Assembly: GCA_964016885.1 (NCBI GenBank)
Contig: CAXHJY010001660.1
Span: forward strand, 1,108-65,107
Length of the DNA stretch: 64,000 nt
From: Eledone cirrhosa
Lineage: Eukaryota
Direction of reading: 5' to 3'
Position numbers and translations under genes: made by a program. This document shows, piece after piece, positions 13,530 through 64,000 of this stretch; positions within the stretch are counted from its first letter, which is position 1; each line of letters starts with the position of its first letter. A model generated the notes under the pieces. That model made no database searches. It had not been told where the DNA came from and was given only the letters and a program-made list of their open reading frames with translations.

Positions 13530-13580
13530 GGTTTCCTGATGATTTCTCCCGAATGAAACAGTTCTAGTCCTGTAGAAGCC
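13530..13580 (+). ncRNA. Type I hammerhead ribozyme motif, family A
   Basis: Same fold; stem I ggtttc/gaagcc contains one wobble. Confidence 0.7.
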
Positions 13581-13583
13581 TTT

Positions 13584-13628
<45 letters not shown>

Positions 13629-13685: not shown

Positions 13686-20733
<7,048 letters not shown>

Positions 20734-31213: not shown

Positions 31214-31314
31214 GTAAGTTTTAAAAATGAAACTAGGTTATAATTATATTTACGTGAAAAGGATCAAATTTGTTATTTACAGTTGTATTAGTGTAGCAAA
31301 CTCCGTAGAATGAG

Positions 31315-32025
31315 AATAATACCAGGTTTACAAATAGCTAAGAGATAACTGGTGGTTGTACTGCCGTATAATGATAACACTCCAGGTTTACAGATAGTTA
31401 AGAGATAACTGATGGTTGTACTGTAGTATAATAATAACACTCCAGGTTTACAGATAGTTAAGAGATAACTGATGGTTGTACTGCCCTATAATGATAACAC
31501 TCCAGGTTTACAGATAGCGAAGAGATAACTGATGGTTGTACTGCCGTATAATGATAACACTCCAGGTTTACAGATAGCTAAGAGGTAACTGATGGTTGTA
31601 CTGCCCTATAATGATAACACTCCAGGTTTACAGATAGCTAAGAGATAACTGATGGTTGTACTGTAGTATAATGATAACACTCCAGGTTTACAGATAGCTA
31701 AGAGGTAACTGATGGTTGTACTGCCCTATAATGATAACACTCCAGGTTTACAGATAGCTAAGAGATAACTGATGGTTGTACTGCCCTATAATGATAACAC
31801 TCCAGGTTTACAGATAGCTAAGAGATAACTGATGGTTGTACTGCCCTATAATGATAACACTCCAGGTTTACAGATAGCTAAGAGATAACTGATGGCTGTA
31901 CTGCCCTATAATGATAACACTCCAGGTTTACAGATAGCTAAGAGATAACTGATGGCTGTACTGCCCTATAATGATAACACTCCAGGTTTACAGATAGCTA
32001 AGAGATAACTGATGGTTGTATTGTC
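31315..32025. repeat. 60-bp minisatellite, about 12 copies
   Basis: Unit tccaggtttacagatagctaagagataactgatggttgtactgccctataatgataacac; aligns line by line in the listing. Confidence 0.97.
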
Positions 32026-32039
32026 GTGGTTCGCTGGTA

Positions 32040-38360: not shown

Positions 38361-38645
38361 AAAATGTCAGTTGAACCTTGTGAAATGCGGCCGATTATCG
38401 TATTCGGTGGTGAGATGATGGTCATTTTCGTTTTAGTTCCACCTCTTTTTTTTCTTTCTCTCTCTTTGATTGTATATATTGGTGCGTTGTATTTGTAAGG
38501 TTCCTAGCAATAGTTAATTGTATTTATTATATGTGCTTATATTTGGGTTTAAATTTTAATTCTGAAAGAATTGTTAACAATTTGTAATGTTATTTATACA
38601 ACTGTGAATAAAATAAATTGTCGAACCGTGTTTTCTTCTTTACAG

Positions 38646-40616
38646 AGATCGTTGAGAAATATGAAAACAGTACAAGGAGACACGATCATAGAGATTCTTT
38701 AAGAAATGGTGTGGAGCCAGTGTCTAGCAATCGCTCTCAACATAATCTTATAAAGAATAGATCTCGAGATAGTTTAACGAGTAGAAAGTCATCATCTTCG
38801 CTAAAAAGTGTTGGAGATGATTCTATGCAAAACAAAACTAATGCGAAGACAACTGTGAATGTAAAGAACGCCAAAATAAACGACAGACATGTTAGATGTT
38901 TTATATCTCCCTCGTCTTCATGGTATTATGACCCACTTAATGCCGTATGTAAAATTCCGTCATTAAAACCTGTCCGAAGTTCATCGACTGGAGCTTTAGT
39001 CAATATTAAAGACAAATTCCAACCAAAACGAAGTTCAAGCTGTAGTAGTAATCCACTTATGAAGCGAAATTCTCTCAAAAAACAAAACCATTCCCATTCT
39101 TTGGATCGAAATCTAAACCATTCAATTTCGAATTGTAGTTCAATCGGTTCACCCGAAACCGGAAATAAGATACCCACATCGAACTGTGTCAAAATCCGTA
39201 AGTGTCGCACGCGTTCTCCCAGTATAAGAGATGTTAATGAGGATCTGATTGGTTCTTCGCCTAAAGATAACATCAGTGAAATGTCTTGCTCTGACACTTC
39301 AACCAAAACACTTACCTCGGAAATAGTCAAAGGAATTCATAAGCAACAGACGTCTACCCATTGCTCTCCGTCCAGTAAAAGCAACAAGCAAAATAATTCG
39401 CCACAATCGGAGGTAGCACAGAATAAAAGGAAATCTGATCATTCTAAGGAATATTTACAAAATGAAATTATTGAAGAGGTGGCGAATGATTCTTCAACTT
39501 TGCCGGTTGTAAAAGAAAACAGTAAAACGAACCATAAAGTGTATGCTTCTGCATTTTCTTCATCATCTACTTCATCATCATCGTCTTCTCTAAAGGCTCC
39601 AATGCCTGCTGCAGCTGCAGGTGGACTTGGTCCACAAGGTGATTGTGAAGCACTGGCTTTTCGAAAAACAAGTAATAGGTCATCTAGTAAAATCAATCGA
39701 AAATCTTGGCCTTTTTACCAAAATCAATTGCTAGATATTTGTCCAGGATCATCAGCTATCCCCAAGCTGAAATCTAGTCACCTTTCCACCGATCGTCTAA
39801 CTAGAAATGACAAGAAAAAGCAACGCAGTCAGTCATTTGATAAAGATGGTACTGCAGGTCTGACAACTCCTTACATTAATACCCCTGCTGCAGGCCAACC
39901 GAAGGTATCTAATTATTCAATCACTTCCTCTGGTTCATTTGTCTCGGCCAGTAGCTACTCAACAGAATCTTACGAGTCTTTATTCACATCAGAAGAATGC
40001 AACGAAGCAACAGAAGAAACTAGCATGAAACGCTGCTCTTCTCACACAGAGTCATCACCTACTCTTCAATATATTAGTGCAGAAGGTACATCAGTCGGTG
40101 GTAGCACGTCAGCCGAATCCTTCGCAACGGTTAATGAATCGGCCACAGAACATGTATCGGTCAACGGCAGCACGTCTGCCGATTCTTTCGCAACCGTAGA
40201 CGGCTCTTCTGCAGATTCTTCACAAAGCATGCGCAGATTTCCACCAACACTTCAGGAACAACCAGCACCACCAGGACCAACGTTATTCTTAACAACTTCA
40301 ACTTCCACCGATTCTTCCCAGTCATCGTTGTCACCTTCTCTTTCTCCCCGTTCTCGCTCTTTGCAGTTGTCACCTTTTGTGCCATCAGCATCAACCATTT
40401 CGCCATCTTCATCGAAATCATTAACACCGAATGCCTCAAATGCGCCAAACGTACAATCAGTACATGAATCACCTGCAAAAACTTGCACGTCTTCTTCAAC
40501 ACAATGTTCACCGTCAGACATTCCAAACACCGAATTCTTGCCTTCTCATGTGTTAGGACCTCTTATCGGTTTCGACGCACTTTCTATACATTCCATCAAC
40601 AGAAATTATTCTAAAG
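38646..40616 (+). CDS. 1971-nt Ser/Thr-rich exon of the RUN-domain protein (likely disordered)
   Basis: Lies inside ORF 38618..40951. ttcttctttacag acceptor, AAG/gtacgt donor, phase 1->1. An internal 22-aa repeat differs mostly at third codon positions. Confidence 0.9.
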
Positions 40617-41334
40617 GTACGTTTACATTATATGTTATTTCTTCTTTCAAAATATGCACACATGCACATATACATACACACACTCTTACACACACTCTTA
40701 CATGCACTTACACATACACTTACACATACACTTACACACACACTCCCAGACAAAATACACACCTACACACACGCACACACATACATCTCCACAAACACAC
40801 CTCCACACACCCACGCACACATAGACACTCACCCACGCTCACACAGGCACACACCCACGCACACACAGACACCCACGCACACACCCACGCACACACAGGC
40901 ACACATACACGCGTACACACTCATATAAAGTTATGTATTTGTGTTCATTAGGTGTTCGCTTTGCAACCACTTGATTTCGGCTTCAGTCCCACTGGGTGAC
41001 GCTCTTTAGTTGACGGGAATTGTATGGCAGCTCGTCACGCACGCACACGCACAATACACTCGCCTCCTCCTCATCATCATTTAACGTCCGTTTTCCCTGC
41101 TAACAAGGTTAGTGTATGTATGTGTGTATGGATGGATGAATATGTGTATGGGTTATGTAGTCCAACCCTAAAAAACGGAGCTCATCTTCTAAGAAATACC
41201 ATTGATTAAAGAGGTCTGTTTGATGGGGTTCTTTTGCGGCTAAGTAACAACAATACATATAACTTGTATACACATTCATTCTTTTCAACAATTCTTTAAA
41301 AATAAAATAAAATATTTGTCTTCCTACATATATT

Positions 41335-45171: not shown

Positions 45172-56182
<11,011 letters not shown>

Positions 56183-56183
<1 letters not shown>

Positions 56184-56570
56184 TACCCAACTACACCTCT
56201 CAAAGTCAATGACACACGACCGTGACTTCTGGCGTCACGCAGTAATACAGGGTACCCGACCTCCCATGGGTACATGCTGAAGCATATAAACAATATGTCC
56301 CCCCCCCCCCACCGCAAGGTGGTCGTGGAGGTGCCACGGCAAAAAAAGCACCCAGCCCCACACTGTAAAGTGGACGTGTAGGCGCCACGAAAAAGCACCC
56401 AGCACTCACTGTAAATGAGGTTGGTGTTAGGAAGGGCATCCAGCTGTAGAAATCAAGCCAGATCAGTTCCTGTATGAGCAAGGCATGGTCAGCCGACCAG
56501 ACACTGCCCACAACAGGACAACCCGTCTAACCCATGCTAGCGTGGAAGAACGGACGTAAAACGGTGATGA

Positions 56571-56572
<2 letters not shown>
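56183..56572 (+). mobile_element. RTE-like 3' fragment plus SINE body ending in (GAT)n
   Basis: DRDFWRHAV-like end and gaagggcatccagctgtagaaa motif; homologous to 348-520. Confidence 0.6.
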
Positions 56573-56661
<89 letters not shown>

Positions 56662-56664
<3 letters not shown>

Positions 56665-56710
56665 TCCTGATGATTTCTAATTAATGAAATAGTTCTAGTC
56701 CCGTAGAATC
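56662..56710 (+). ncRNA. Degenerate family A hammerhead
   Basis: Core CTGATGA and GAAA retained, but stems II and III carry mismatches. Confidence 0.45.
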
Positions 56711-56807
56711 TCATCTATATTAAAACTTTTATACTCTGCTATGTATTGAGTACTTTACTTACTGTGGTTACCTCCGATTCAACCCGGAATAACGTATATA
56801 TATATAC

Positions 56808-56853
<46 letters not shown>

Positions 56854-56899
56854 ACACATATATATATATATATACACATATATATATATATATATACAC

Positions 56900-56930
<31 letters not shown>

Positions 56931-56955
56931 TATATACATATATATATATATACAC

Positions 56956-56990
<35 letters not shown>

Positions 56991-56994
56991 CACA

Positions 56995-57026
<32 letters not shown>

Positions 57027-57032
57027 CACACA

Positions 57033-57292
<260 letters not shown>

Positions 57293-57293
57293 C

Positions 57294-57346
<53 letters not shown>

Positions 57347-57387
57347 CATATATATATATATACATATATATACATATATATATATTC

Positions 57388-57422
<35 letters not shown>

Positions 57423-57423
57423 T

Positions 57424-57461
<38 letters not shown>

Positions 57462-57497
57462 GCATATACATACACACATATATATATATATATATAT

Positions 57498-57608
<111 letters not shown>

Positions 57609-57643
57609 TATATATATATACACATATATATATATATATACAC

Positions 57644-57676
<33 letters not shown>

Positions 57677-57691
57677 TATATATATATACAC

Positions 57692-57724
<33 letters not shown>

Positions 57725-57806
57725 TATATATATATATACACATATATATATATATACACATATATATATATATACTATATATATATATACACATATATAT
57801 ATATAT

Positions 57807-57885
<79 letters not shown>

Positions 57886-57995
57886 TATATATATATATAT
57901 ACACATATAGTACGTTATTCCGGGTTGAATCGGAGGTAACCACAGTAAGTAAGGTACTCAATACATAGCAGAGTATAACAGTTTTAATATAGATG

Positions 57996-58046
57996 AGATT
58001 CTACAGGACTAGAACTGTTTCATTCATTAGAAATCATCAGGAATCT
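57996..58046 (-). ncRNA. Type I hammerhead ribozyme motif, family A
   Basis: Minus strand: agattc-CTGATGA-t-ttc(taat)gaa-t-GAAA-cag(ttctagtc)ctg-TA^-gaatct. Confidence 0.75.
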
Positions 58047-58257
58047 GGGTATCACGCCATCCAGAACCTGTTTATAGAAATCTGTCTGCCTTTGTTACTC
58101 TAAAAACATAAATAAATATAAATTAACTATAGCTATGTAGAATTAGCTTTTAATGAATTCCCTTCTCTATCAACCAATGACCTGCACCCATCCCACTCCC
58201 CACCCTCTCCTACCACTTGTAGAGACCTATAAATACCATATTTATTTTTTGATACCC

Positions 58258-58311
58258 AGATTCCTGATGATTTCTTCTAATGAATGAAACAGTTCTAGTC
58301 CTGTAGAATCT
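58258..58311 (+). ncRNA. Type I hammerhead ribozyme motif, family A
   Basis: agattc/gaatct stem I, intact core, 3-nt duplication confined to loop II. Confidence 0.72.
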
Positions 58312-58331
58312 CATCTATATTAAAACTATAT

Positions 58332-58396
<65 letters not shown>

Positions 58397-58455
58397 TATA
58401 TATATATACACATATATATATATATCTATACACATATATATATATATATATACAC

Positions 58456-58644
<189 letters not shown>

Positions 58645-58721
58645 TATATATATATATATATATACACATATATATATATATATACACATATATATATATA
58701 TATATGTACACATATATGTAT

Positions 58722-58755
<34 letters not shown>

Positions 58756-58781
58756 ATATATATATGTACACATATATGTAT

Positions 58782-58815
<34 letters not shown>

Positions 58816-58833
58816 ATATATATATATATACAC

Positions 58834-58886
<53 letters not shown>

Positions 58887-58889
58887 CAC

Positions 58890-58920
<31 letters not shown>

Positions 58921-58923
58921 CAC

Positions 58924-59052
<129 letters not shown>

Positions 59053-59112
59053 TATATATATACATATATATATATACATACACATATATATATATATATA
59101 TATACATACACA

Positions 59113-59148
<36 letters not shown>

Positions 59149-59171
59149 CACACATATATATATATATACAC

Positions 59172-59204
<33 letters not shown>

Positions 59205-59221
59205 CACACATATATATATAT

Positions 59222-59298
<77 letters not shown>

Positions 59299-59315
59299 TA
59301 TATATATATATACAC

Positions 59316-59398
<83 letters not shown>

Positions 59399-59495
59399 CA
59401 CATATATATATATATATATACACATATATATATATATATACACATATATATATATATATACACATATATATACACATATATATATATATATACAC

Positions 59496-59928
<433 letters not shown>

Positions 59929-59935
59929 TATATAC

Positions 59936-59966
<31 letters not shown>

Positions 59967-59967
59967 C

Positions 59968-60018
<51 letters not shown>

Positions 60019-60031
60019 CATATATATATAC

Positions 60032-60066
<35 letters not shown>

Positions 60067-60067
60067 C

Positions 60068-60116
<49 letters not shown>

Positions 60117-60129
60117 CATATATATATAC

Positions 60130-60206
<77 letters not shown>

Positions 60207-60249
60207 CATATATATATACATATATATATATATATACATATATATATAC

Positions 60250-60392
<143 letters not shown>

Positions 60393-60405
60393 CATATATA
60401 TATAC

Positions 60406-60436
<31 letters not shown>

Positions 60437-60449
60437 CATATATATATAC

Positions 60450-60512
<63 letters not shown>

Positions 60513-60634
60513 TATATTAATAAGAGGAATTCCAACTTTGTCTGATTTACTCGTTTTATTTACAATCCTTTAAAATATATATAATGGTATTATAATGAAA
60601 TAGTATGATAGAATATTAAATTCTAAGTGTTAAT

Positions 60635-60673
60635 TGAACAAGTACTTTCATGCTTTCGCAATCTTCAGGTTCA
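60635..60673 (-). ncRNA. Minimal type I hammerhead (inverted copy)
   Basis: Reverse complement of 60757-60795. Confidence 0.75.
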
Positions 60674-60756
60674 TGATATGTGGTGACAGTCGAGTTTACA
60701 ATTTTCAACTGTTGAAAATTGTTGAAAATTGCAAACTCGACTGTCACCACATATCA

Positions 60757-60795
60757 TGAACCTGAAGATTGCGAAAGCATGAAAGTACTTGTTCA
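60757..60795 (+). ncRNA. Minimal type I hammerhead with palindromic stem III
   Basis: tgaac-CTGAAGA-t-tgc(GAAA)gca-t-GAAA-gtac-TT^-gttca. Confidence 0.75.
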
Positions 60796-60967
60796 ATTAA
60801 CACTTAGAACTTAATATTCTATCATACTATTTCATTATAATACCATTATATATATTTTAAAGGATTGTAAATAAAACGAGTAAATCAGACAAAGTTGGAA
60901 TTCCTCTTATTAATATAATCTTCTATACACAATCATACACACCCGTGTATATTTACCTATCTATATC

Positions 60968-61016
<49 letters not shown>

Positions 61017-61025
61017 GTATATGTA

Positions 61026-61080
<55 letters not shown>

Positions 61081-61103
61081 GTATATATATATATGTATAT
61101 ATG

Positions 61104-61174
<71 letters not shown>

Positions 61175-61357
61175 ATATGTATATATATATATATATGTAT
61201 ATATATATGTATATATATATGTATATATATATGTATATATATATGTATATATATATGTATATATATGTATATATGTATATATATATATGTATATATGTAT
61301 ATATATATGTATATATATATGTATATATATATGTATATATATATGTATATATATATG

Positions 61358-61388
<31 letters not shown>

Positions 61389-61389
61389 G

Positions 61390-61422
<33 letters not shown>

Positions 61423-61437
61423 GTATATATGTATATA

Positions 61438-61484
<47 letters not shown>

Positions 61485-61509
61485 GTATATATATATGTAT
61501 ATATATATG

Positions 61510-61570
<61 letters not shown>

Positions 61571-61781
61571 ATATATATGTATATATATATGTATATATAT
61601 ATGTATATATGTATGTATATATGTATATATATATGTATATATGTATGTATATATGTATATATATATGTATATATGTATATATATATGTATATATGTATAT
61701 ATATATGTATATATGTATATATATATGTATATATGTATATATATATGTATATATGTATATATATATATATGTATATATGTA

Positions 61782-61824
<43 letters not shown>

Positions 61825-61845
61825 GTATATATGTATATATATATG

Positions 61846-62008
<163 letters not shown>

Positions 62009-62173
62009 GTATATATATATGTATATATATATGTATATATATATGTATATATATATGTATATATATATGTATATATATATGTATATATGTATATATATGT
62101 ATATATATATGTATATATATATGTATATATATATGTATATATATATGTATATATGTATATATATGTATATGTA

Positions 62174-62214
<41 letters not shown>

Positions 62215-62261
62215 CTATATATATGTATATATATATATATATATATGTATCTATATATATG

Positions 62262-62291
<30 letters not shown>

Positions 62292-62292
<1 letters not shown>

Positions 62293-64000
62293 GTAACTTT
62301 GAATAACTTTGAAATGTTTTGGCCAGTATTGGCCCAGGCCATGTCTAACTTAATAGCACCACCTGGCGAAGTCTTTCAATTCAGGATTTGGGCACCATGG
62401 CCCATTCGAGAAGAGAATTACTGTTTGCGGAGACATATCCGGGTGTGGGTGGTTTGTCCGGGATTACTTGGAGGAATTTGTCCATAGACTTCTTGAATTT
62501 TGTGTGGTCAGTTTCTGTTTTGACGTGTCCTGGTGTGATGTTGAAGAGAGCAGGGCCGATTGAGGTGAAATAATTGTGCCGTATTGTTGTTATGAGTTGC
62601 GATTTAGATTTTTGAATGGGACGGATAGCACGGGGCCCAAGCCTTGGGTTTATCTTGAAGGCGATGCCAACATCATTTGGGCAGTGATGATGGAACATTT
62701 TCCACATCATGCAGATAATATAACGCTCACGGCGACGTTGGAGTGAGTAAAGTTTCAGGTTTTCCAATCGACCCCAGTAGTCAAGGTCTGACATGCCATC
62801 TATCTTTTTCGTGATTGCCCTTTGAGGAGCTTCAAGTTTCATGATACTTTGTTTCGTGTGGGGAGACCACAGTGGACAACAGTATTCAAGGTGTGGTCGG
62901 GCGAAAGTAGAGAAGAGAAGGATAATGGTGCGGGAATCTCTCGACTGGAAGGTTCTGAGGATCCAGGAACACATTCTGCGGGCCATGTCAACTTTGCTGC
63001 TTATATGCGTGGTCCAGCTTATGTTGCTGTCCACGGTTACTCCCAAGTCTCTGATGTTGTTAGATGCCACGAGAGTTTCCCCGGAGGGAAGGGAGTACGG
63101 GAGTTTCAGAGCATCCTCTTTTCCAAAGTGGATCAGTTCGAATTTGTCTTCGTTCAGTAACATGTTGTTCTTTTCTGCCCATTGGGTAACAGCCAGTAGG
63201 TTTGACTGAAGGCTTATCCGGTCATCCACGCCATTGATGACCTTTTGGAGCTTGGAATCATCAGCGAAAATTTTAATGTTGCTGTGTTTGATGATGTCAG
63301 TGATGTCATTAATATAGATGATGAAGAGAAGTGGGCCCAACACAGTGCCTTGTGGGACTCCACTACTGACTTTGGCTGGGCTTGATTTGACTCCCTCAAC
63401 TACAACATGTTGGGTTCTGTTTGACAGGAAGCTCTTGATCCACTGCAGCAGCTTTCCAGTGACACCAATATTGGACAGCTTTCTCAGTAGAATGTTATGA
63501 TCAACCGTGTCAAAGGCCTTGCTGAAATCAAGGTAGATAACATCAGTGTTGGAACCCTCTCCCAAGGCTCTCAAAATGTCATCAAAGTGATGCAGTAGTT
63601 GCGTCAGGCAATCCCTTCCATTACGGAATCCATGCTGGTTGGAGTTCAGCATATTGTTACTCTCAAGGAAGTGGGTCATTCGCGATCTCACCACTCGCTC
63701 AAATACCTTAATGATATGAGAGGTGAGTGAGATTGGACGGTAATTCACGGCAAGGGATTTGTTTCCCTTTTTGAAAACTGGGACAACAGACTGGGATAGA
63801 AGGTTTTCTGGCACATATCCAGCATCCAGTGAGTTCCGCCACAGATTGGCAAGAGGAGATGCAAGTTGGTGTTGACACGCCTTCAAGACACAAGCAGGGA
63901 ACCTATCGGGACCTACTGCTGAATTATGCTTGATTTCCTTTATTGCCGCCAAGACATCAGGGGCGCCAAACGTTATGTCCGATAAGGTGTAATGGGGAGT
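62292..64000 (-). mobile_element. CR1-like LINE, 3' portion with short 3'UTR ending in a (TA)n array
   Basis: Uninterrupted RT ORF, then about 90 nt of 3'UTR abutting the microsatellite. Confidence 0.9.
62381..64000 (-). CDS. Non-LTR retrotransposon ORF2 reverse transcriptase (CR1/L2-like), running off the window edge
   Basis: Motifs [61 protein letters not shown]. The frame stays open for 16 more codons to position 64000. Confidence 0.95.

What the first reader, a model, noticed from the sequence alone, without database searches (positions are those of the whole stretch)
60513..60917. Very young 405-bp palindrome carrying two divergent minimal hammerheads
Seen: arms of about 197 bp with about 2 mismatches, and a centre containing a 10-nt duplication (gttgaaaatt x2), which looks like a template-switch footprint. 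Each arm encodes a 39-nt hammerhead with a 5-bp stem I, a GAAA-tetraloop stem II and palindromic AAGUACUU stem III. Established: such minimal PLE hammerheads are thought to act as dimers. Inference: a transcript from either strand would contain one ribozyme and its full antisense, forming a long dsRNA hairpin.
Basis: partly seen in the sequence, partly recalled or inferred. Interest (0 to 1): 0.7.

Follow-up and report, generated by a model that had tools for sequence, protein, structure and literature searches.

The report
Head-to-head stump of Penelope-like retrotransposon
This DNA palindrome is real and each half carries a hammerhead-ribozyme motif, but the halves are mirror copies of the end of a very abundant repeat, likely the ordinary dead-end footprint left when a Penelope-like jumping gene inserts into a TA repeat, a layout already described in print.

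Summary
Observation confirmed: 197-bp arms (60513-60709, 60721-60917) with 2 mismatches, a 10-nt central duplication and two identical 39-nt minimal hammerheads on opposite strands. Public runs show that arm and tail are one high-copy repeat: other copies end with or without the tail and form head-to-head joints at many other breakpoints. The window holds a second head-to-head pair with two intact hammerheads 2.3 kb away. Inverted truncated copy, one-sided tail and TA target are the published footprint of Penelope-like elements (PMC3846280, PMC8557442), and paired minimal hammerheads on opposite strands 100-700 bp apart were reported in 2014 (PMC4209133). In a read-through transcript the hammerhead is predicted to be fully buried in the hairpin. 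Not shown: the autonomous parent, transcription, cleavage, an age, or reads across this exact junction. Side note: all 7 intact hammerheads in the window, from three unrelated families, close stem II with U-U. This scan has already reported the same layout at other loci of this genome and in other genomes. Low interest.

The parts
60513..60712 (-). Left arm: inverted, 5'-truncated copy of the repeat's 3' end, without tail, ending directly in (TA)n
   Evidence: family sequence continues past 60712 in other copies: loose ends in X1, X2, X3, X4, X6
60635..60673 (-). Minimal type I hammerhead motif, copy 1 (predicted cut after 60640)
60710..60731 (.). Head-to-head junction with period-10 tandem duplication (GTTGAAAATT x2), leaving an 11-nt loop
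   Evidence: same centre without the duplication in 2 contigs of X2 (table 7)
60721..60917 (+). Right arm: direct, 5'-truncated copy of the repeat's 3' end up to the short end point
60757..60795 (+). Minimal type I hammerhead motif, copy 2: stem I 5 bp, CUGAAGA, U10.1-U11.1 plus 3-bp stem II with GAAA loop, GAAA, GUAC palindromic loop, CUU triplet (predicted cut after 60790)
60918..60967 (+). One-sided tail; family sequence at least to about 60950 (true end not resolved); A+C-rich (74% over 60918-60944) with a 6-bp stem-loop at 60935-60950
   Evidence: (tables 2, 7, 8)
60501..60517 (+). Candidate target-site duplication, left copy (low information: lies in microsatellite)
   Evidence: its 16-nt core occurs 65 times in the left flank and once in the right flank, directly after the tail
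60968..60984 (+). Candidate target-site duplication, right copy
58328..60512 (.). Left flank: (TA)n microsatellite interrupted by C on the + strand (insertion target)
60968..62295 (.). Right flank: (TA)n microsatellite interrupted by G on the + strand; not a mirror copy of the left flank
   Evidence: run-length alignment score 4 against a shuffled mean of 5.9

Best explanation
The locus is two back-to-back, truncated copies of the 3' end of a high-copy hammerhead-bearing repeat, one with a tail and one without, set in a TA microsatellite, and it was likely made in one insertion by a Penelope-like reverse transcriptase-endonuclease. Shown: anatomy, repeat nature, two kinds of 3' end, variable head-to-head joints in other copies. 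Inferred mechanism: the enzyme cut the (TA)n target on both strands; each DNA end primed copying of the same RNA, one from the short start point (60917, where the RNA reads UAUA and can pair with the TA target) and one from the long start point at the end of the AC-rich tail; both copies stopped at nearly the same 5' position (possibly the RNA's own 5' end) and were joined head to head; a 10-nt slip then duplicated the centre. The hammerheads are passengers of the terminal repeat. They are predicted to be inactive here, because each strand encodes only one of them and it would be paired with its antisense.
For: (1) Arm and tail are one repeat: 1899 and 1234 contigs laid in X1 and X4, 2519 reads in X19; depth continues through 60918-60953; loose ends going straight into TA at 60917 in 33 (X1) and 29 (X4) contigs. 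(2) 7 of 11 joints listed table 5, 3 of the 3 X19 rows in table 5c, and 2 of 2 table 5 run from the left (antisense) arm to the right (sense) arm at different breakpoints. (3) The family continues 5' of the junction (loose end at 60712 in X1 11, X4 12, X2 5, X3 9, X6 2 records), so the arms are truncated. (4) Both arms share the same base at six mirrored sites where copies in organism A vary (60593, 60608, 60622, 60623, 60675, 60692), and each of the 2 arm differences is a private change in one arm. (5) A second family in the window shows the same design, tail on one arm only: 57913-58327 (two intact hammerheads), 12271-12450 and 13450-13590. (6) Literature: inverted pLTR plus optional 31-bp tail and junction palindromes (PMC3846280, passages); inverted 5'-truncated copy, 30-40-bp one-sided tail, (TA)n bias (PMC8557442, passages); two reverse-transcription start sites in an AC-rich stem-loop, both strands cut and extended, hammerhead dispensable in vitro (PMC11167929, parts 1-2 of 4); dual minimal hammerheads 100-700 bp apart on opposite strands (PMC4209133, parts 1-2 of 4).
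Against: No start codon was found for an ORF running into the tail, unlike Pen2a_Av and PAc. The tail may be longer (up to 50 nt) than the 30-40 bp published. Each joint rests on one or two contigs or reads with 21-34 letters on the shorter side, and the runs are not shown to be the window's own species. No listed record bridges this exact junction with 31 letters on both sides. Two-ended priming is not separated from fold-back copying by these data.
Confidence: 0.85

Rival explanations
1. Same class of insertion but a different route: one copy (with tail) was made first, and its 3' end folded back or switched template and copied itself (self-priming model of Arkhipova et al. 2013), giving equal arms automatically. 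This is a variant of the best explanation; the confidence is for the route, given a Penelope-type origin.
For: Arms are of equal length and meet at a near-perfect hairpin tip; PMC3846280 reads junction palindromes as self-priming; the same centre recurs in 2 contigs of X2.
Against: The fold-back tip would have a loop of 1-3 nt with 1-2 bp of priming; other copies have unequal arms and foreign letters at the joint (tables 5, 5c); PAc cuts and extends both target strands from two start sites.
Confidence: 0.35
2. The RNA copied was a non-coding, non-autonomous retrozyme-type repeat riding on a Penelope enzyme rather than the terminal repeat of an autonomous element. Also a variant; the confidence is for the nature of the template.
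For: No ORF start found in arm or tail; very high copy depth; retrozymes proposed as Penelope derivatives (bioRxiv 10.64898/2026.07.22.740005, part 1 of 5).
Against: No tandem monomers at this locus; the hammerhead is of the minimal kind tied to Penelope terminal repeats (PMC4209133), not the canonical retrozyme kind (PMC7229834, passages).
Confidence: 0.35
3. A selected hairpin-RNA gene or self-muting ribozyme switch that produces double-stranded RNA for small-RNA silencing or A-to-I editing.
For: Predicted 197-bp duplex, -314 kcal/mol; the locus lies about 20 kb downstream of a 779-codon exon-like frame on the + strand, so read-through is possible.
Against: Breakpoints differ among copies, arms are no better conserved than a recent insertion would be, and no promoter or conservation across species of this locus was shown.
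Confidence: 0.07
4. Fold-back read chimera or assembly artefact.
For: No listed record bridges this exact junction under the 31-letter rule; palindromes within long TA tracts are hard to sequence.
Against: A chimera mirrors everything: here the tail is on one side only and is true family sequence, the flanks are not mirror copies, each arm has a private base change, and like junctions occur in independent short-read data.
Confidence: 0.04
5. A foldback or MITE-type DNA transposon whose long terminal inverted repeats happen to include a hammerhead.
For: Long inverted arms, no coding capacity, TA target.
Against: Asymmetric ends (tail on one side), variable inner breakpoints, single arms with unlike sequence before 60721-60722 (table 7), hammerhead core kept.
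Confidence: 0.03

Closest known systems
Insertion units of endonuclease-bearing Penelope-like elements with inverted pLTR and one-sided tail (Pen2a_Av, PMC3846280; Fig. 2 legend and text of PMC8557442)
   Same: Head-to-head inverted truncated copy, tail on one arm only, palindrome at the junction, AT-rich or (TA)n target, arm length about 200 bp (Pen2a_Av pLTR 218 bp)
   Different: No ORF between the repeats; tail up to 50 nt rather than 30-40; parent element not identified
[quoted passage not shown]
   Same: Type I topology, 5-bp stem I, palindromic stem III loop, opposite-strand pair
   Different: Stem II is short (3 bp) and closes with U10.1-U11.1 instead of the conserved G10.1-C11.1 with an extra base after position 9; the two motifs are 83 nt apart; CUU triplet
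Poseidon of Anolis carolinensis (PAc; PMC11167929)
   Same: Two 3' end points flanking an AC-rich stem-loop tail; AT-rich target
   Different: In PAc the ORF starts inside the hammerhead and runs through the tail; not seen here. Enzyme activity was shown for PAc, not for this family
Metazoan non-LTR retrozymes (PMC7229834)
   Same: Non-coding, high-copy, type I hammerhead, low GC
   Different: Retrozymes are head-to-tail tandems giving 170-400-nt circles; this locus is head-to-head with one hammerhead per strand

Membership tests
EN+ Penelope-like element insertion | Inverted 5'-truncated copy joined head to head | tested here: met
EN+ Penelope-like element insertion | Tail on one end only, with two fixed 3' end points in the family | tested here: met
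   copies end at 60917 into TA or continue through the tail; long end point not resolved to the base
EN+ Penelope-like element insertion | Hammerhead in the terminal repeat | tested here: met
EN+ Penelope-like element insertion | AT-rich or (TA)n target | tested here: met
EN+ Penelope-like element insertion | Target-site duplication | tested here: inconclusive
   17-bp direct repeat 60501-60517 / 60968-60984, but inside microsatellite
EN+ Penelope-like element insertion | Repeat belongs to an element encoding telomerase-like RT and GIY-YIG endonuclease | not testable with these tools
   no genome held; no such frame among 11 window frames scanned; collections searched hold no copy
Minimal PLE hammerhead | Core C3 U4 G5 A6 N7 G8 A9, G12 A13 A14 A15.1, U16.1 H17 | tested here: met
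   CUGAAGA ... GAAA ... UU
Minimal PLE hammerhead | Palindromic 15.2-16.2 and loop III allowing a dimer | tested here: met
   AAGUACUU self-duplex -6.6 kcal/mol; monomer closure of stem III costs +5.3 kcal/mol
Minimal PLE hammerhead | G10.1-C11.1 pair with an extra base after position 9 (typical, PMC4209133) | tested here: not met
   U10.1-U11.1; a known natural variant that keeps some activity (PMC3088659, passage), so filed as a variant motif
Minimal PLE hammerhead | Self-cleavage as a dimer or with protein help | not testable with these tools
   needs in vitro assay
Non-LTR retrozyme | Head-to-tail tandem monomers each with a hammerhead | tested here: not met
   only two inverted copies in the window; family-wide arrangement unknown
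Non-LTR retrozyme | Expressed as linear and circular RNA | not testable with these tools
   no RNA run was available to lay
MITE or foldback DNA transposon | Symmetric terminal inverted repeats with fixed ends | tested here: not met
   one-sided tail, variable inner breakpoints

The most novel reading that the evidence does not exclude
Near-symmetric stumps like this one are transcribed inside host transcripts and supply a large, family-specific pool of perfect 200-bp hairpins that feed small-RNA silencing and A-to-I editing in this (probably octopod) genome, so the element's own insertion route makes its silencer and mutes its ribozyme; and the U10.1-U11.1 stem II closure seen in 7 of 7 intact sites from three unrelated families marks a lineage-wide hammerhead variant tuned for low or protein-dependent activity.
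Probability: 0.15. Interest if true: 0.5.

Novelty: new member of a known kind. Interest (0 to 1): 0.15.

Why it matters
Little by itself: it is one more truncated Penelope-type insertion. It is a clean example for the open question of how these elements build inverted ends (one short end, one long end, equal inner stop points), and such stumps are a possible, untested source of double-stranded RNA in a lineage known for heavy RNA editing (the last point is from general knowledge, not from a call).

Tried and rejected
Rfam: no hammerhead among the 150 of 222 matches listed for 56000-64000 or for 60720-60920; the miRNA matches are hairpin and TA artefacts far below gathering scores. Whole-genome census impossible: no genome held. 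Exact pattern scans found 0 matches in metagenome contigs and viral contigs. No RNA holder listed; this says nothing about expression. X15 laid 0 reads (about 1 in 100 of the run read) and X5 only 2 contigs. Idea that the palindrome extends into the flanking microsatellites: rejected, run-length patterns do not match. Read ends piling at 60632-60635, 60798 and 60899 in X19 coincide with TTAA and GAATTC sites and are likely restriction ends of the RAD library, not element ends. The RT frame at 62381-64000 is LINE-type and not the partner. Family not found in supplementary file S1 of PMC8557442: the two diagnostic hammerhead strings had 0 occurrences, though matches split across line breaks would be missed. 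Earlier-findings look-up by sequence gave nothing and by relatives only TA-word matches. Paper searches for a U-U stem II in Penelope hammerheads gave only PMC3088659; some searches gave listings only, none read. The library lacks most subscription papers, and supplements of PMC4209133 (alignments of PLE hammerheads), which I did not open, may already show U-U closures.

Full report
Observation. The palindrome is as described. Arms 60513-60709 and 60721-60917 are 197 bp with 2 mismatches and an 11-nt spacer. The centre has a period-10 repeat over 60710-60731. Each arm has the same 39-nt type I hammerhead (60757-60795 on +, 60673-60635 on -), with intact core, 5-bp stem I, 3-bp stem II with GAAA loop, and AAGUACUU at stem III. 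A strict pattern finds 7 such sites in the window against a mean of 0.03 in 30 shuffles (the U-U criterion was set after seeing the hits; the relaxed pattern gave 19 sites, 11 of them in a 27-bp satellite and one unrelated, against a mean of 0.2). Rfam does not detect the motif.

Setting. The window is animal DNA rich in TA microsatellites. The named protein closest in identity to its LINE reverse transcriptase, among 120 listed, is from Argonauta hians (63%), so an octopod host is likely; this is an inference.

The arm is a high-copy repeat with two kinds of 3' end. 14 of 21 listed runs hold part of the stretch, from 10 studies, 3 of them with half the words or more. Laying four runs gave 1899 contigs (X1), 1234 (X4), 2519 reads (X19) and 0 (X15). 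Depth continues through 60918-60953, so the one-sided tail is family sequence; its far end is hidden by repeat masking from 60948. In 33 X1 and 29 X4 contigs the sequence leaves at 60917 straight into TA. The tail is 74% A+C over its first 27 nt and has a 6-bp stem-loop at 60935-60950. Past 60712 the left arm continues in other copies with further family sequence, so both arms here are 5'-truncated.

Head-to-head joints are routine in the family. 7 of 11 joints table 5 run from the antisense arm to the sense arm at different breakpoints; the other four are three within-arm skips and one strand change. The three X19 rows in table 5c and both joints table 5 are of the same kind. Each rests on one or two records with short sides, so they show variety, not frequency. 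Two X2 contigs lie on the window up to 60721 and then continue as the window does from 60732, that is, the same fold-back centre without the 10-nt duplication (table 7). Three contigs each in X2 and X3 begin at 60721-60722 after unlike sequence. The junction therefore looks like a recurrent 5' stop point. It sits on an ACAGTT word resembling the initiator consensus TCAGTY (recalled, not from a call); I looked for this after reading note e1-8815902, and it remains a hypothesis.

The same design recurs in the window. A second, unrelated family has two intact hammerheads head to head at 58040 (-) and 58264 (+), with a tail of about 60 nt on the left arm only; pairs at 12271-12450 and 13450-13590 have the same one-sided tail and one intact hammerhead each. 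A third family has inverted arms at 8421-8677 and 8859-9068 with one hammerhead at 8730 (-) in the unpaired part. All 7 intact motifs, in three families, have U-U at 10.1-11.1. That pair is a known natural variant (PMC3088659, passage) but departs from the G-C pair called highly conserved in PLE hammerheads (PMC4209133).

Not an artefact, most likely. The tail is one-sided and is family sequence; the flanks have mirror polarity (C-interrupted left, G-interrupted right) but their run-length patterns do not match (score 4, shuffled mean 5.9); each arm has one private change relative to copies in organism A (60698 left, 60810 right). No listed record bridges this exact junction with 31 letters on both sides, and the runs are not shown to be the source animal, so direct confirmation is lacking.

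Age and origin of the arms. 2 differences in 197 bp is 1.0% (95% interval 0.12-3.7%). Copying errors at insertion or later conversion between arms could shift this either way. The arms agree at six mirrored sites that vary among copies in organism A, as expected from one template or one subfamily.

Mechanism. Published work gives the frame. EN+ Penelope-like elements often carry an inverted 5'-truncated copy, a 30-40-bp tail at one end, and favour microsatellites (PMC8557442, passages; PMC3846280, passages). The purified PAc protein cuts AT-rich DNA on both strands, extends both, starts reverse transcription at two sites in an AC-rich stem-loop that define the tail, and does not need its hammerhead, which cuts only with protein present (PMC11167929, parts 1-2 of 4). 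Applied here (inference): both cut ends of the TA target primed on one RNA, at the short and the long start point; both copies stopped near the same 5' position and were joined over a 2-nt overlap; the centre was then duplicated by a 10-nt slip. A 17-bp direct repeat on both sides may be the target duplication (weak). Fold-back self-priming (PMC3846280) remains a live alternative, and the template may have been a non-autonomous repeat, since no parent ORF was found.

The ribozymes. The monomer cannot close stem III (+1.1 against -4.2 kcal/mol); the palindromic segment pairs with itself (-6.6), which fits the dimer model. Here the two motifs are on opposite strands, so no cis dimer is possible. 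In the read-through RNA the arms pair at probability 0.999 and the hammerhead stems at 0.0; even in the right arm alone stem I is predicted at about 0.01. Minimal PLE hammerheads cut weakly even as dimers (PMC4209133). The locus is thus predicted to be catalytically silent.

Novelty. PMC4209133 already reports dual minimal hammerheads 100-700 bp apart on opposite strands as parts of truncated PLEs. PLEs are recently active in Octopus vulgaris (31 families, 336 insertions; PMC13282606, passages). Unreviewed notes of this scan describe the same layout repeatedly in this genome and others; they are not independent support. I did not find this family's sequence in print, with the limits stated under Tried and rejected. 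Verdict: a real, recent, ordinary member of a known insertion type; interest 0.15.

Noticed in passing
window 57913-58327: Second head-to-head pair of an unrelated family, two intact type I hammerheads (58040 -, 58264 +) with a longer stem III (4 bp plus 8-nt loop holding CUAG), tail of about 60 nt on the left arm only; related copies at 56660-56794, 12271-12450, 13450-13590 and 10808-10960.
   Followed up: partly
window 8421-9068: Third family: inverted arms that include about 140 bp of irregular TA/TG/CA low-complexity sequence mirrored on both sides, a single minimal hammerhead (core at 8730, - strand) in the unpaired part, and an A-run at the inner end of the right arm. The mirrored low-complexity part may be captured flank or part of the element.
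   Followed up: partly
window 8730, 12389, 13536, 58040, 58264, 60668, 60762: All 7 intact hammerheads, from three unrelated families, close stem II with U10.1-U11.1 rather than G-C.
   Followed up: partly
window 45200-62300: The long TA tracts switch polarity (C-interrupted versus G-interrupted on +) at islands: C-to-G across 46400-47100, 51834-52505 and the finding locus; G-to-C near short islands at about 49070 and 54715-54800; no switch across 57913-58327. Unexplained.
   Followed up: partly
window 46400-49230 and 51834-54940: Apparent duplication of a block about 5.4 kb apart (islands 98% alike); each island holds internal direct repeats of 150-170 bp ending in TA, possibly another partial-tandem retroelement end.
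   Followed up: no
window 62381-64000 (-): Open 539-codon LINE-type reverse transcriptase frame running off the window (Pfam RVT_1, E 5e-32), apparently intact.
   Followed up: partly
window 38612-40951 (+): 779-codon Ser-rich open frame without Pfam match, likely a large host exon running into a CA repeat.
   Followed up: no
window 10008-10265 and 11031-11718: Two further inverted-repeat structures (258-bp imperfect palindrome; 170-bp arms 87% alike around a 350-bp spacer) without a hammerhead match, MITE-like.
   Followed up: no
window 13750-19300 and 31303-32027: A 27-bp satellite with a 2614-bp higher-order repeat, and a 60-bp tandem array.
   Followed up: no
window 6521-7114 and 7270-7863: 594-bp direct repeat, 98% alike, set in (TATG)n microsatellite.
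   Followed up: no
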